From contig CACJPG010000001.1 of NCBI GenBank assembly GCA_902595225.1, positions 3,583-67,582 on the forward strand: 64,000 bases of DNA, in the 5' to 3' direction. The notes under the pieces were generated by a model that was not told where the DNA came from, did no database searches, and saw nothing but the letters and a program-made list of their open reading frames with translations. The position numbers and the translations under genes were made by a program. Shown piece after piece: positions 20,977 to 24,376 of this stretch (the stretch's first letter is position 1; each line of letters starts with the position of its first letter). Source of the DNA: an uncultured Thiothrix sp. (GTDB lineage: Bacteria > Pseudomonadota > Gammaproteobacteria > Poriferisulfidales > GCA-002705445).

Positions 20977-21668
20977 GATTAGGTTTAGTTGTAGATTTAG
21001 ATAAATGCGTAGGTTGTAATGCCTGTGCTATTGCATGCAAGCAATGGAACACTTCTGGAACTTCTGGCTCACTAACAGACTATAGGCCTTATGGTCCAGA
21101 TCCAAGCGGAGTATTTTTTAATAGAATTCGACATTACGAGACAGGAAATTATCCTGAAAATAAAACAGTGCATTTCCCAATGTCATGTATGCATTGCGAA
21201 GAAGCTGCATGTGTTACTGTGTGCCCAACGGGCGCTTCGTATAAAAGAGAAGAAGATGGAATTGTTTTAGTTGATCCTGAAAAATGTATGGGATGTAACT
21301 ATTGTGCATGGGCATGCCCCTATGGTGCAAGGGAACTCGATCGCGAGGAAGGGATTATGAAAAAGTGCACGTTGTGCGTAGATAGAATATACGATGAAAA
21401 CTTACCTGAATCAGAAAGAAAGCCAGCATGTGTAATGACTTGTCCAACAACCGCAAGATATTTTGGTGATTTTGATGATCCCAACTCAGAAGTGTCGATA
21501 GTTTCAAAAGAAAGAGAGGGACAAGAGTTATTTTCTGAACTAGGCTATAAGCCAGTAAACAAATATTTATCACCACGTAAGAAAGTTGAGATAGAGCAAC
21601 ATGAAATAGTTGAGCCTGATCTTGTTAGAAAAGTTAAAGATTGGGTTAATAAAGTAGTTGAATTGTAA
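20973..21668 (+). CDS. soeB: Four-cluster [4Fe-4S] ferredoxin subunit (DmsB/PsrB family); SoeB-like
   Basis: Cys clusters are CVGCNACAIAC, CMHCEEAACVTVCP, CMGCNYCAWACP and CTLC..CVMTCP. The start overlaps the stop of the catalytic subunit. Confidence 0.7.
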   Translation: MRLGLVVDLDKCVGCNACAIACKQWNTSGTSGSLTDYRPYGPDPSGVFFNRIRHYETGNYPENKTVHFPMSCMHCEEAACVTVCPTGASYKREEDGIVLVDPEKCMGCNYCAWACPYGARELDREEGIMKKCTLCVDRIYDENLPESERKPACVMTCPTTARYFGDFDDPNSEVSIVSKEREGQELFSELGYKPVNKYLSPRKKVEIEQHEIVEPDLVRKVKDWVNKVVEL

Positions 21669-21685
21669 AAATAAGGTAATTATTA

Positions 21686-22639
21686 ATGCACCCAGCATTT
21701 TCAGTCATTTTTTTCACAGTTACGTCAGGAGCAGGATATGGCTTGATGGCACTACTTTGTCTTTTTAATTTTTTATACCTTGGTATGCTTTTTGATAAAA
21801 ATATTTTTTTAATTTTCTCTGGCATAAGTGCAGTTCTTTTTACAATGGGCTTGATATCCTCAACATTTCATCTTGCAAACCCAAAAAATGCTTGGAGAGC
21901 TTTCATGAGATTTAGAACATCATGGCTGGCGAGAGAGGGTTTACTAGCAATTTTATTCTACCCCACACTATTTTTATATTTACTTTTAATACATCTGGAT
22001 TTTTATAAAGATTATTTCCTTTTAATGCAAATATATAGTGTTTTTATCTTCTTTTTTGCAATCTTAATAATATATTGTACTGGTATGATTTATGCGTGTT
22101 TAAAAACTATTCCTCAATGGAACACACCATGGACACCTATAAATTATATAACTATAGGTATTTATTTAGGCGGTTTAATATTTTTCGCATTATTGAGTTT
22201 TAATGATTTTAATATTAATCCATATAAGCCGTTTGTATTAGCCTTGATTTTTGTTGCATTCATAGCAAAGTTTATTTATTACTTAAGTATAAAGGGCCCG
22301 CGACATGAAATCGGTCAAGCAACAAATGCGGCGATTAAACTTAAAAATACAAACGTAAGACTTCTGGATGTAGGCCATACTGGAGGTACTTTTTTAACTG
22401 ATGAATTTGGATACAAAGTAGCAGAGAAAAGATTAAGAAAAATAAAGTGGTTTTCTATTTTTTCAGGATTTTTTATACCTTTTTTCTTAATTTTTTCATA
22501 CAGCTATTTCTTTGAAAATATATTTTTATGCTTATTTGCTGTCTTACTTTCTTTTACTGGCATGATTGCTGAAAGATGGCTATTCTTTGCAGAAGCAAAA
22601 CATGTCGTTAATCTCTATCACGGAGCACAGAAGTGTTAA
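21686..22639 (+). CDS. soeC: DmsC/NrfD-type membrane anchor subunit; SoeC-like
   Basis: It is 317 aa with about 8 hydrophobic helices. The N-terminus MHPAFSVIFFTVTSGAGYG is typical of the DmsC-family anchors I remember. Confidence 0.62.
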   Translation: MHPAFSVIFFTVTSGAGYGLMALLCLFNFLYLGMLFDKNIFLIFSGISAVLFTMGLISSTFHLANPKNAWRAFMRFRTSWLAREGLLAILFYPTLFLYLLLIHLDFYKDYFLLMQIYSVFIFFFAILIIYCTGMIYACLKTIPQWNTPWTPINYITIGIYLGGLIFFALLSFNDFNINPYKPFVLALIFVAFIAKFIYYLSIKGPRHEIGQATNAAIKLKNTNVRLLDVGHTGGTFLTDEFGYKVAEKRLRKIKWFSIFSGFFIPFFLIFSYSYFFENIFLCLFAVLLSFTGMIAERWLFFAEAKHVVNLYHGAQKC

Positions 22640-22646
22640 AGTTTTT

Positions 22647-22712
22647 ATGAATTGGATATTTTATTATTACGGTATAGTATATATTATTATAATGTTGATA
22701 TATTTTTTATGA
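22647..22712 (+). CDS. Candidate 21-aa hydrophobic micro-protein (MNWIFYYYGIVYIIIMLIYFL)
   Basis: I translated this by hand. It starts 8 nt after the soeC-like stop, and its TGA overlaps the ATG of a paralogous second mini-ORF (ATGA). I saw no clear RBS. Confidence 0.35.
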   Translation: MNWIFYYYGIVYIIIMLIYFL

Positions 22713-22783
22713 GTTGGTTGATAATAATTTACGGTATCATTTACTTTGCTTTGTTTGCAAAAATGTTTTTTTTGTTAACTTAA
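22709..22783 (+). CDS. Candidate 24-aa hydrophobic micro-protein (MSWLIIIYGIIYFALFAKMFFLLT)
   Basis: I translated this by hand. It shares M-[NS]-W-[IL]-x3-Y-G-I-[VI]-Y with the preceding mini-ORF. Confidence 0.35.
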   Translation: MSWLIIIYGIIYFALFAKMFFLLT

Positions 22784-22815
22784 ACCTATATTAAAAAATT
22801 TAGTATTTATCTTTT

Positions 22816-23214
22816 ATGTTATATTTAAAATTATTTACGGTTTCTTTTTTTACTTTTTTAATCCTAGATGCAATATGGTTAGGATTTGTAGCAAGAAATT
22901 TTTATGCTAAGTATTTAGCTTTATATTTGACAGAAAACGTTATTTGGCTATCAGCAATAATTTTTTATATTATTTTCAATATTGGCCTATTAGTCTTTGT
23001 AATCTTGCCTTCCATAGAAAAAAACTCATATTCAGTACTTATTATTTATTCTCTATTATATGGAATTGTAACGTTTGCCACATATGACCTAACAAATTAT
23101 GCAACAATAAAAAATTGGCCCTTCATTGTAACAATTGTAGATATTTGTTGGGGAATGTTTGTTGCATTCGCATCATCTTCAATGGCCTTTTTATTTCATA
23201 AATATTTTGTATAA
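22816..23214 (+). CDS. DUF2177-like small membrane protein
   Basis: It is 132 aa with 4 helices. FLILDAIWLGFVARNFY resembles the DUF2177 N-terminal signature, from memory. Confidence 0.5.
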   Translation: MLYLKLFTVSFFTFLILDAIWLGFVARNFYAKYLALYLTENVIWLSAIIFYIIFNIGLLVFVILPSIEKNSYSVLIIYSLLYGIVTFATYDLTNYATIKNWPFIVTIVDICWGMFVAFASSSMAFLFHKYFV

Positions 23215-23293
23215 CCAAGTAATTCTATATTTTATCCTAAATTCTGCTTAATAAGCTCTTGCCAATGAGCTCATAAATAAGTATTATTTTTGT

Positions 23294-23620
23294 ATGAGAT
23301 ACTTATTATTACCCTTATTAATTATATCTTTTAGCACTTTTGCCTTAGACAGTAATTCTAAGGTAGAGAGCTCCTCTGTAAATTGCTTTGAAAGTGTAGG
23401 TAAGCAGAATTTAAGTCATTCTCGCAAAAGAAATTTCCCCACTTCAAACTATGTCAATTGTTTAGATAAATCTAAACAGATTGCAAAAGAAAAGAAAGTT
23501 ACAACCCCAGATAGACAAGTTAACATTGGTGCAGCTGTATTATTAAACCCAGTTGGCGCGGCTTATTGGTTAATAAACAAAGCCATCAATACAGGCGTTG
23601 ATAAAACAATTAATAAATAA
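23294..23620 (+). CDS. Small secreted hypothetical protein
   Basis: It has the signal peptide MRYLLLPLLIISFSTFA. I recognise no domain. Confidence 0.45.
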   Translation: MRYLLLPLLIISFSTFALDSNSKVESSSVNCFESVGKQNLSHSRKRNFPTSNYVNCLDKSKQIAKEKKVTTPDRQVNIGAAVLLNPVGAAYWLINKAINTGVDKTINK

Positions 23621-23656
23621 AAAAACGCGCTCAAAATTCTAACTTAAAAAATCAAT

Positions 23657-24376
23657 ATGATCGAAATTAAAAATTTATGTAAAAATTATGATGGCGTTAC
23701 AGTTGTTGATGATTTAAATTTAAAAATTAATAAAGGTGAGGTATTAGGTTTTCTCGGACCAAATGGTGCTGGCAAGTCAACAACAATGAAAATGGTTACT
23801 GGTTTTATTGAGCCATCCAGCGGTGAAGTAAATGTAAAAAATCTCACGATAAAAGAAAACCCTATGGAAGTTAAAAAATTAATTGGTTATTTGCCTGAGG
23901 GCGCTCCGCAATACGGAGAAATGATTGTTAAAGATTTCTTGTCATTTATTGCGAAAATTAGAGGCATTGAAAAAAATAAAATGAATGCAGCAATCACAAG
24001 TGTAATCGATAATCTGTCTTTACATGACGTTGTAAATAAAAGGTTAGAACATTTGTCAAAGGGTTTTAAAAGAAGAGTGGGTATTGCTCAAGCAATTATT
24101 CATGATCCAGAGATACTTATAATGGATGAGCCAACTGATGGTTTAGATCCAAATCAGAAATATGATGTTCGAGAATTAATTAAAAAAATATCAAAAAATA
24201 AAACTATTGTTATATCTACACATATTCTTGAGGAAGTTGAAGCAGTATGTACTAGAGCTGCAATTATATCGAAAGGTAAGCTTCTTTTTAATGATACTCC
24301 AAAAAAGCTTAAAGAATCTGGCGATGGAAACCTTGATGATATTTTTAGAACCATAACTATGGGGAGTTCAAGTTAA
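23657..24376 (+). CDS. ABC transporter ATP-binding protein (GldA-like, ABC-2 type)
   Basis: It has Walker A GPNGAGKST, the signature LSKGFKRR and Walker B ILIMDEP. Confidence 0.9.
   Translation: MIEIKNLCKNYDGVTVVDDLNLKINKGEVLGFLGPNGAGKSTTMKMVTGFIEPSSGEVNVKNLTIKENPMEVKKLIGYLPEGAPQYGEMIVKDFLSFIAKIRGIEKNKMNAAITSVIDNLSLHDVVNKRLEHLSKGFKRRVGIAQAIIHDPEILIMDEPTDGLDPNQKYDVRELIKKISKNKTIVISTHILEEVEAVCTRAAIISKGKLLFNDTPKKLKESGDGNLDDIFRTITMGSSS

What the first reader, a model, noticed from the sequence alone, without database searches (positions are those of the whole stretch)
22640..22815. Two overlapping, paralogous micro-ORFs for single-helix peptides right after the SoeC-like anchor
The 176-bp gap that the ORF track leaves empty contains ATG 22647..TGA 22712 (MNWIFYYYGIVYIIIMLIYFL) and ATG 22709..TAA 22783 (MSWLIIIYGIIYFALFAKMFFLLT). 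The two are joined by an ATGA stop/start overlap. The first begins 8 nt after the soeC-like stop. They share M-[NS]-W-[IL]-x3-Y-G-I-[VI]-Y, which chance ORFs in AT-rich DNA are unlikely to do in tandem and in this register. In style they recall the tiny accessory subunits of quinol-interacting membrane complexes, such as CydX-type peptides that start MWYF.W. They could be unannotated subunits of the Soe-like complex or of the downstream DUF2177 protein.
Basis: seen in the sequence. Interest (0 to 1): 0.6.

Follow-up and report, generated by a model that had tools for sequence, protein, structure and literature searches.

The report
Two unannotated membrane micro-protein genes after soeC
The 176-base "empty" gap after the membrane anchor gene of a sulfite-dehydrogenase-like operon holds two real, overlapping genes for 21- and 24-residue one-helix membrane peptides; natural selection keeps them, but only two closely related lineages of one genus of small-genome marine bacteria have them, and their function is still unknown.

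Summary
ATG22647-TGA22712 (21 aa) and ATG22709-TAA22783 (24 aa) overlap in ATGA and lie between a DmsC/SoeC-type anchor gene and a DUF2177 gene.

They are very probably real genes:
- Both frames, both starts, both stops and the ATGA junction are kept in the sister species (SoeC 85% identical) and in all but one of about 25 independent contigs.
- Between the two lineages pS is 0.60 and pN is 0.13, like the flanking genes.
- A spectrum-preserving relocation test gives P=2e-4.
- The only indel inside the frames between the two lineages is 12 nt, in frame. One low-coverage contig (L116) has a 4-nt deletion that changes the ORF2 tail.
- Metatranscriptome contigs run from soeC through both ORFs into DUF2177.
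- The two peptides resemble each other more than chance allows (p about 6e-4).

They are lineage-restricted. Every other lineage of the genus that keeps soeC next to DUF2177 has a 91-133 nt non-coding spacer there. The motif occurs nowhere else in the order's 53 genomes. No family, protein-collection or donor match was found. They fail the CydX motif.

The partner (SoeC, DUF2177 or neither) is inferred from position only. This is a new small-membrane-protein family of a well-known kind, of moderate interest.

The parts
21686..22639 (+). soeC-like membrane anchor gene (317 aa, DmsC family), last gene of the soeA-soeB-soeC-like molybdoenzyme cluster
   Evidence: PF04976 DmsC, E=1e-20. Orthologues are present across the genus.
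22647..22712 (+). micro-ORF 1: 21 aa, MNWIFYYYGIVYIIIMLIYFL. Predicted single TM helix rich in aromatic residues at its N-terminal end. The sister lineage adds a cytoplasmic-type MKK[SN]H N-terminus.
   Evidence: Conserved in frame in the sister lineage with a 12-nt in-frame insertion and a GAGG Shine-Dalgarno. Gly codon seen as GGT, GGA and GGC.
22703..22709 (+). T_TTT_TTA heptamer at the end of ORF1. A -1 slip here would read straight into ORF2.
   Evidence: Read from the sequence. The heptamer is broken (TTC) in L029 and L030, so frameshifting is not required.
22709..22712 (+). ATGA stop/start overlap joining ORF1 and ORF2 (translational coupling)
   Evidence: Invariant in all haplotypes of both lineages.
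22709..22783 (+). micro-ORF 2: 24 aa, MSWLIIIYGIIYFALFAKMFFLLT. Predicted single TM helix with one Lys near the C-terminal end.
   Evidence: Conserved as a 25-aa form, MSWLIITYAIIY[FL]VLFAKIIFLL[VA]Q, in the sister lineage, with a TAG/TAA stop switch.
22766..22773 (+). T8 homopolymer inside ORF2
   Evidence: One low-coverage contig (L116, cov 2.9) has T4 here, which changes the tail to ...AKMFC*. This is either a sequencing error or a tolerated C-terminal variant.
22784..22815 (+). short non-coding spacer before DUF2177. It evolves fast and varies in length (32 nt here, 11 nt in the sister lineage).
   Evidence: Window against L028: 6 differences in 32 nt here, against 2 in the 137 nt of the ORFs.
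22816..23214 (+). DUF2177 membrane protein gene (132 aa)
   Evidence: PF09945, E=1.6e-36. The metatranscriptome contig 22623-22873 links it to the micro-ORFs and the soeC 3' end.

Best explanation
The gap holds two real, unannotated, translationally coupled genes. Each encodes a single-pass inner-membrane micro-protein of 21 and 24 aa (25 and 25 aa in the sister species).

Shown: both frames are under purifying selection as strong as in the neighbouring genes. The two peptides are paralogues, consistent with a local tandem duplication of about 62 nt. They are found only in two sister species-level lineages of one genus of uncultured marine gammaproteobacteria with genomes of about 1.1 Mb. They lie on RNA that continues from soeC into DUF2177.

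Inferred: ribosomes finishing soeC, 7 nt upstream, initiate ORF1. Termination at TGA inside ATGA re-initiates ORF2, so both peptides would be made in step with the membrane anchor. Each then inserts as one helix. The sister form of ORF1 has an N-terminal KK, which suggests N-in. ORF2 has a Lys near its C-terminal end, which suggests C-in.

The most likely role is as lineage-specific accessory helices that pack against a membrane protein of the same transcript. SoeC, the quinone-side anchor of the SoeABC-like sulfite dehydrogenase, is somewhat more likely than DUF2177. This is the way CydX/CydY/CydZ, KdpF or AcrZ pack against their complexes. They are not core subunits.
For: Conservation: both ORFs, both ATGs, both stops and the ATGA junction are intact in G001 (SoeC 85% identical) and in all 3 G001-type and 1 G000-type metagenome contigs. 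They are also intact in 17 of 18 further contigs; the exception is L116.

Codon-level selection, window against G001: 15 synonymous and 14 non-synonymous differences, pS 0.60 and pN 0.127. soeC has 0.73/0.083 and DUF2177 has 0.68/0.088. The binomial P is 5e-5. A spectrum-preserving relocation expects 7.3 synonymous and 3.2 disruptive changes; 15 and 0 were observed, P=2e-4, joint P=5e-5. Shifted frames contain stops and give lower pS.

Within-lineage polymorphism: about 13 synonymous against 9 conservative non-synonymous changes, a TAG<->TAA stop switch, and GGT/GGA/GGC at the conserved Gly. The indel between the lineages is 12 nt and in frame.

The adjoining spacer diverges about ten times faster: 6 differences in 32 nt against 2 in 137 nt.

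Paralogy: p=6e-4, and 0 of 555 TM-like windows reach the score.

RNA: metatranscriptome contigs cover 22623-22873, 22589-22739 and 22522-22672 with 0 mismatches.

A missing Shine-Dalgarno is normal in this genome; only 21% of long ORFs have a 4-mer SD. G001 has GAGG before ORF1.

No Rfam family matches and only a weak consensus RNA fold is predicted.
Against: There is no direct evidence of translation: no ribosome profiling or proteomics, and the organism is uncultured. The RNA evidence is low-depth assembled contigs, and carry-over of DNA cannot be excluded.

The ORFs are absent from every other lineage of the genus that keeps the junction, where the same enzyme and DUF2177 evidently work without them.

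One contig (L116) carries a 4-nt deletion that rewrites the last residues of ORF2.

The sample for selection is small, 137 nt and two lineages.

Hydrophobicity is what any ORF in 52%-T DNA would encode.

Nothing points to a partner beyond position. In one species (G002) three unrelated genes sit between soeC and DUF2177, so those two genes are not obligately linked.
Confidence: 0.7

Rival explanations
1. Translation relay only. The two short frames are translated merely to carry ribosomes from soeC to DUF2177, replacing the spacer and promoter that other species have. The peptides themselves would have no function.
For: Packing is tight: 7 nt after the soeC stop, an ATGA overlap, then 32 or 11 nt before DUF2177. 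RNA is continuous across all three. Other species have a longer non-coding spacer at this position.
Against: A relay constrains frame and stops, not amino acids. Here pN/pS is about 0.2, as in the neighbouring genes. W3, Y8 and Y12 are invariant in both paralogues and Gly9 is kept in all but the sister-lineage ORF2, where it is Ala.
Confidence: 0.1
2. One two-helix protein made by programmed -1 frameshifting at T_TTT_TTA (22703-22709). This would fuse ORF1 and ORF2 into a hairpin of about 45 aa.
For: The heptamer is a classical X_XXY_YYZ slippery site, and the -1 frame is exactly the ORF2 frame. It is present in the window, in L028 and in most G001-type haplotypes.
Against: L029 and L030 carry TTC in the heptamer, a synonymous change in ORF1 that destroys slipperiness, with everything else intact. 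The ORF2 ATG and the ATGA overlap are invariant, which fits re-initiation. No convincing conserved downstream structure is predicted. T-runs are common in DNA that is 52% T.
Confidence: 0.06
3. Chance or neutrally drifting ORFs in an AT-rich spacer, with no selected product.
For: Single ATG ORFs of at least 20 codons occur in 28% of random 176-nt sequences of this composition. The ORFs are absent in most of the genus. No homologues were found.
Against: Synonymous sites are almost saturated between the two lineages (pS about 0.7 in the flanks), yet the ORF region aligns without frame-breaking indels and with a synonymous excess, P=2e-4 to 5e-5. The spacer right after ORF2 has diverged in sequence and length.
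Confidence: 0.06
4. A conserved non-coding element, either an RNA structure or a DNA regulatory site, that happens to be open in two frames.
For: The region is conserved relative to the downstream spacer.
Against: Substitutions follow codon periodicity in the two stated frames. No Rfam match at E<=1. The consensus fold is weak, -16.8 kcal/mol over 254 columns with a covariation term of -1.7. No promoter or terminator signal above shuffles.
Confidence: 0.03

Closest known systems
CydX / CydY / CydZ: small single-helix proteins encoded after cydB in cytochrome bd oxidase operons (PMC4325964)
   Same: One hydrophobic helix with a conserved Trp at its start. Encoded directly after the last membrane-subunit gene of a quinone-linked respiratory enzyme. 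Often unannotated. Different enzyme clades carry different, unrelated small proteins.
   Different: The CydX motif YxxWxxGx15[E/D] is not met: here the spacing is W-x5-G and there is no acidic residue. The context is soeC, not cydB. No HMM hit even at E<=10. There are two paralogous peptides instead of one. Distribution is limited to two species-level lineages.
Small inner-membrane accessory proteins of E. coli-type systems (KdpF, AcrZ and others; review PMC12648545)
   Same: Under 50 aa, single TM helix, co-expressed with or bound to a larger membrane complex, dispensable for core catalysis, missed by gene callers.
   Different: No sequence relationship. The partner and effect are unknown here. 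The peptides are even shorter (21-25 aa) and almost free of charged residues.
SoeABC sulfite dehydrogenase (Allochromatium vinosum type; named from general knowledge of the Dahl laboratory work, not re-read here)
   Same: The upstream cluster has the three-subunit architecture. These are a molybdopterin subunit with an Fe4S4 motif and no twin-arginine leader (visible), a four-cluster ferredoxin, and a DmsC/NrfD-type anchor.
   Different: No small fourth or fifth subunit has been described for SoeABC, to my knowledge. Two searches of the paper library found none.

Membership tests
CydX (YbgT_YccB, PF08173 / TIGR02106) | Motif YxxWxxGx15[E/D], found in 97% of homologues (PMC4325964) | tested here: not met
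   ORF1 reads M-N-W-I-F-Y-Y-Y-G and ORF2 reads M-S-W-L-I-I-I-Y-G. The spacing is W-x5-G, there is no Tyr three residues before the Trp, and neither peptide in either lineage has an Asp or Glu.
CydX (YbgT_YccB, PF08173 / TIGR02106) | Encoded in or after a cydAB operon | tested here: not met
   The upstream gene is a DmsC-family anchor of a molybdoenzyme cluster.
CydX (YbgT_YccB, PF08173 / TIGR02106) | Match to the family HMM | tested here: not met
   No Pfam or NCBIfam small-protein family matched any of the four peptide variants at E<=10; the single hit, E=2.4 to an ATP synthase B' model, is noise.
Small single-pass inner-membrane proteins (class, not a homologous family) | At most 50 aa with one hydrophobic stretch long enough to span the membrane | tested here: met
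   21-25 aa. Mean Kyte-Doolittle hydropathy is 1.75 and 1.91 over 20 residues. No TM-prediction program was available.
Small single-pass inner-membrane proteins (class, not a homologous family) | Genuine coding gene (selection on the protein) | tested here: met
   pN/pS about 0.2; relocation test P=2e-4; frames, starts and stops conserved.
Small single-pass inner-membrane proteins (class, not a homologous family) | Translated, and physically associated with a larger membrane protein | not testable with these tools
   Only transcription is indicated. Structure prediction needs at least 30 aa and takes single chains only.
Programmed -1 ribosomal frameshift site | Conserved X_XXY_YYZ heptamer plus a stimulatory structure | tested here: not met
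   The heptamer T_TTT_TTA is present in most haplotypes but broken (TTC) in L029 and L030. No convincing conserved structure was predicted.
Leader peptide / attenuator | Short ORF followed by alternative terminator and antiterminator hairpins, with an unconstrained peptide sequence | tested here: not met
   No terminator-like site in 21500-23700. The peptide sequence is under purifying selection.
SoeABC-type molybdoenzyme (context only) | Molybdopterin subunit with an Fe4S4 domain, a 4x[4Fe-4S] subunit and a DmsC/NrfD anchor | tested here: met
   PF00384 + PF04879 + PF01568; PF13247; PF04976. Sulfite-oxidising activity cannot be tested here.

The most novel reading that the evidence does not exclude
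The pair is a young gene family born on the spot. On this reading, a T-rich non-coding spacer between soeC and DUF2177 became translatable behind soeC. Such a spacer is still seen, at 91-133 nt, in every other lineage of the genus that keeps the junction. The unit of about 62 nt then duplicated in tandem, and both copies were captured by selection as membrane micro-proteins. This would be a datable case of de novo micro-protein birth followed by purifying selection in a genome-streamlined free-living marine bacterium.
Probability: 0.35. Interest if true: 0.6.

Novelty: new member of a known kind. Interest (0 to 1): 0.42.

Why it matters
The result adds a new, apparently homologue-less family of 21-25-residue membrane proteins to a respiratory sulfur-oxidation operon. 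The host is an abundant uncultured marine gammaproteobacterium with a heavily streamlined genome of about 1.1 Mb. Retaining an extra 137 nt in such a genome argues for usefulness.

If the peptides bind SoeC, they would be the first small accessory subunits reported for a DmsC/NrfD-anchored molybdoenzyme. That would parallel the CydX/Y/Z story for cytochrome bd.

If they arose from the spacer, the locus is a clean natural example of micro-protein birth, because the ancestral-like state is preserved in sister lineages.

In practical terms, gene callers miss selected genes here on every one of 18 public contigs examined.

Tried and rejected
1. Origin by duplication of the DUF2177 5' end. The repeat 22718-42 against 22824-48 is 80% identical. 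The shared TTTACGG is not kept in L028, and there is no similarity in G001, so I treat it as chance.

2. Origin from a TM helix of SoeC, DUF2177 or the downstream 108-aa protein. Local alignments are no better than shuffles, p=0.15-0.98. The only marginal value, p about 0.03, is to the signal peptide of the 108-aa protein.

3. Another copy or donor in the same genome. tblastn and blastn-short give only low-complexity noise.

4. Wider family.
- The degenerate motif pattern occurs only at these loci in G000 and G001 among the 53 genomes of the order.
- A one-mismatch scan of 401 genomes of the class is at control level.
- The exact peptides and their longer TTG-start versions are not in the 15-billion-protein collection.
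- The 43-aa version has no homologues.

5. Micro-ORFs upstream of DUF2177 in genomes without soeC, or outside the genus: none.

6. Known RNA families: none.

7. Polarity of gain against loss. The SoeC tree nests the micro-ORF clade inside the genus with SH-aLRT 88. However, an AU test does not reject the micro-ORF clade being sister to all the rest (p=0.50). Gain is therefore not proven.

Full report
**What is there**

ORF1 runs from ATG 22647 to TGA 22712 and encodes MNWIFYYYGIVYIIIMLIYFL. ORF2 runs from ATG 22709 to TAA 22783 and encodes MSWLIIIYGIIYFALFAKMFFLLT. The two are joined by ATGA.

ORF1 begins 7 nt after the stop of a 317-aa DmsC-family anchor (PF04976). ORF2 ends 32 nt before a DUF2177 gene (PF09945). 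Upstream lie a molybdopterin subunit and a four-cluster ferredoxin subunit, which is the SoeABC-like architecture.

The genome is about 1.0 Mb with 30% G+C. Its relatives are deposited as 'uncultured Thiothrix sp.' SAG AH-287-I11 and as Gammaproteobacteria MAGs from seawater.

**Is it more than chance?**

In random sequence of the gap's composition (52% T), one ATG ORF of at least 20 codons is common, at 28% of trials. Two occur in 2.5%, and an ATGA-joined pair in 0.05-0.09%. Hydrophobicity itself is not evidence, because T-rich DNA encodes Phe, Ile, Leu and Tyr by default. The decisive evidence is comparative.

**Synteny**

I collected the soeC neighbourhood from three sources:
- all 53 genomes of the order;
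- 32 metagenome contigs;
- 18 further contigs that encode the identical DUF2177 proteins.

Both micro-ORFs are present in the window's own lineage and in the sister species G001, whose SoeC is 85% identical. In G001 the peptides are MKK[SN]HNWIFFYYG[AV]VYIIIMLVVFL and MSWLIITYAIIY[FL]VLFAKIIFLL[VA]Q. The ATGA overlap is the same, and a GAGG Shine-Dalgarno precedes ORF1.

All other lineages of the genus have SoeC 67-73% identical. They carry soeC, a 91-133 nt AT-rich non-coding spacer, and DUF2177, with no comparable ORFs. One species (G002) is an exception: three genes on the opposite strand are inserted at this junction. They encode a circularly permuted ATP-grasp protein, an Alpha-E protein and a transglutaminase-like protein.

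Outside the genus, soeC is followed by unrelated genes.

**Coding constraint**

- Between the window and G001, the two frames show 15 synonymous and 14 non-synonymous differences (pS 0.60, pN 0.127). This is essentially the pattern of soeC (0.73/0.083) and DUF2177 (0.68/0.088).
- I relocated the same 29 substitutions at random while keeping their base-change spectrum. This gives 7.3 +/- 1.9 synonymous and 3.2 start/stop-disrupting changes. The observed numbers are 15 and 0 (P=2e-4; joint P=5e-5).
- The wrong frames contain stops.
- The only indel between the two lineages inside the ORFs is 12 nt, in frame.
- Within lineages I count about 13 synonymous and 9 conservative non-synonymous polymorphisms. 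These include GGT/GGA/GGC at the conserved Gly and a TAG/TAA stop switch.
- The 32-nt spacer after ORF2 has 6 differences between the window and L028, where the 137 nt of ORFs have 2. It also differs in length between lineages.
- One exception: contig L116 (coverage 2.9) has T4 instead of T8 at 22766-22773, which gives ORF2 the tail ...AKMFC*.

**Paralogy**

In register, the two peptides share W3, Y8, G9, I10, Y12 and F20. The BLOSUM62 score is 41, the shuffle p is 6e-4, and none of 555 TM-like windows of the genome's own proteins scores as high. The DNA units lie 62 nt apart. A local tandem duplication is the simplest origin of the pair.

**Expression**

Three seawater metatranscriptome assemblies hold contigs identical to the window. 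They cover 22623-22873 (soeC end, both ORFs and DUF2177 start), 22589-22739 and 22522-22672. This indicates one RNA across soeC, the micro-ORFs and DUF2177.

There are caveats: depth is low, these are assembled contigs, and DNA carry-over is possible.

No terminator or above-background promoter is predicted in the region. Weak or absent Shine-Dalgarno sequences are the rule in this genome, where only 21% of long ORFs have a 4-mer SD.

**What it is not**

- No Pfam or NCBIfam small-protein family matches at E<=10.
- The peptides are not in the 15-billion-protein collection, and the 43-aa version has no homologues.
- There is no second copy in the genome.
- There is no similarity to the helices of SoeC or DUF2177.
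- No Rfam family matches and no convincing RNA structure is predicted.
- A degenerate motif pattern hits only these four ORFs in the whole order and is at control level across 401 genomes of the class.
- The CydX motif YxxWxxGx15[E/D] (PMC4325964) is not met.
- The T_TTT_TTA heptamer at the ORF1 end would allow a -1 slip into ORF2. It is broken in L029 and L030 while the ATGA is invariant, so re-initiation is the conserved feature, not frameshifting.

**Mechanism**

Shown:
- the frames are selected;
- the two peptides are paralogous;
- the coupling geometry is conserved;
- the ORFs lie on RNA shared with their neighbours;
- the distribution is lineage-restricted.

Inferred:
- the peptides are translated in step with soeC through the 7-nt gap and the ATGA;
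- each inserts as one helix;
- they pack against a membrane protein of the transcript.

I put the odds at about 0.85 that they are real, selected peptide genes. Given that, I estimate about 0.35 for SoeC as partner, about 0.2 for DUF2177, and the rest for another partner or an independent role. They cannot be core subunits, because the rest of the genus lacks them.

The best analogy is CydX/CydY/CydZ. There, different clades of one quinol-linked enzyme carry different small Trp-started helices encoded after the last membrane subunit (PMC4325964; general review PMC12648545).

**Origin**

The SoeC tree places the micro-ORF clade (SH-aLRT 98) inside the genus, with the G007 lineage branching first (88-89). 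An AU test does not reject the alternative that all lineages without the ORFs form one clade (p=0.50). One gain and one loss are therefore both possible on this gene alone.

Three observations make birth in place a live reading, at about 0.35, but it is not demonstrated:
- the motif is absent everywhere else in the order;
- a non-coding T-rich spacer sits at the same site in every other lineage that keeps the junction;
- no donor was found.

**Verdict**

The subunit role is untested, and the CydX likeness is only functional analogy.

Unannotated single-helix micro-genes turn up often; the scan's own notes list many. This one is therefore a new family of a known kind. Its moderate interest rests on the respiratory-operon context, the streamlined host and the possible recent birth.

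Noticed in passing
L125 (G002:C14:4000-8800), between soeC and DUF2177: In one species of the genus, three genes on the opposite strand are inserted at the soeC-DUF2177 junction. They encode a circularly permuted ATP-grasp protein (PF14403), an Alpha-E domain protein (PF04168) and a transglutaminase-like protein (PF01841). The junction is therefore a variable site, and soeC and DUF2177 are not obligately linked.
   Followed up: partly
L011-L026 (family f3 genomes), directly after soeC: Outside the genus, soeC is often followed by a conserved gene of about 75-85 aa encoding MPYFIYKI...PILKEWEK. It has no Pfam match. In other genomes a UDP-glucose-dehydrogenase-like gene follows instead; I recognised it by eye and did not test it.
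   Followed up: partly
L039, L040, L041, L047, L051-L053 (spacer after soeC, about 115-120 nt): The non-coding soeC-DUF2177 spacer of one Arctic/Antarctic-type lineage is itself well conserved. It contains a hairpin-like inverted repeat (AAAGGAC...GTCCT), possibly a terminator or regulatory element. The simple terminator scan did not call it.
   Followed up: partly
L044 (Ga0114997_10004638), after soeC: DUF2177 appears to be 5'-truncated and interrupted on this contig. The spacer runs straight into ...LLDAVWLGFVAREFYAK... and in-frame stops follow. It may be a pseudogene or an assembly fault.
   Followed up: no
L116 (ENA contig, coverage 2.9), equivalent to window 22766-22773: A 4-nt contraction of the T8 run inside ORF2 changes its last residues to ...AKMFC*. 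This is either a homopolymer error or a natural C-terminal variant.
   Followed up: partly
window 23294-23620: A 108-aa protein with a signal-peptide-like N-terminus and no Pfam or NCBIfam match is conserved directly after DUF2177 across the genus.
   Followed up: no
window 22602-22646: An in-frame upstream ATG inside soeC could extend ORF1 to 36 aa (MSLISITEHRSVKVF + ORF1). The corresponding frame in G001 is closed by TAA.
   Followed up: yes
L071 (G059:C5), around DUF2177: In a distant gammaproteobacterium, DUF2177 is followed by a gene that by eye looks DUF1295-like (not tested). The DUF2177 literature hits concern singlet-oxygen and heliorhodopsin neighbourhoods. This suggests DUF2177 is not a Soe-specific partner.
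   Followed up: no
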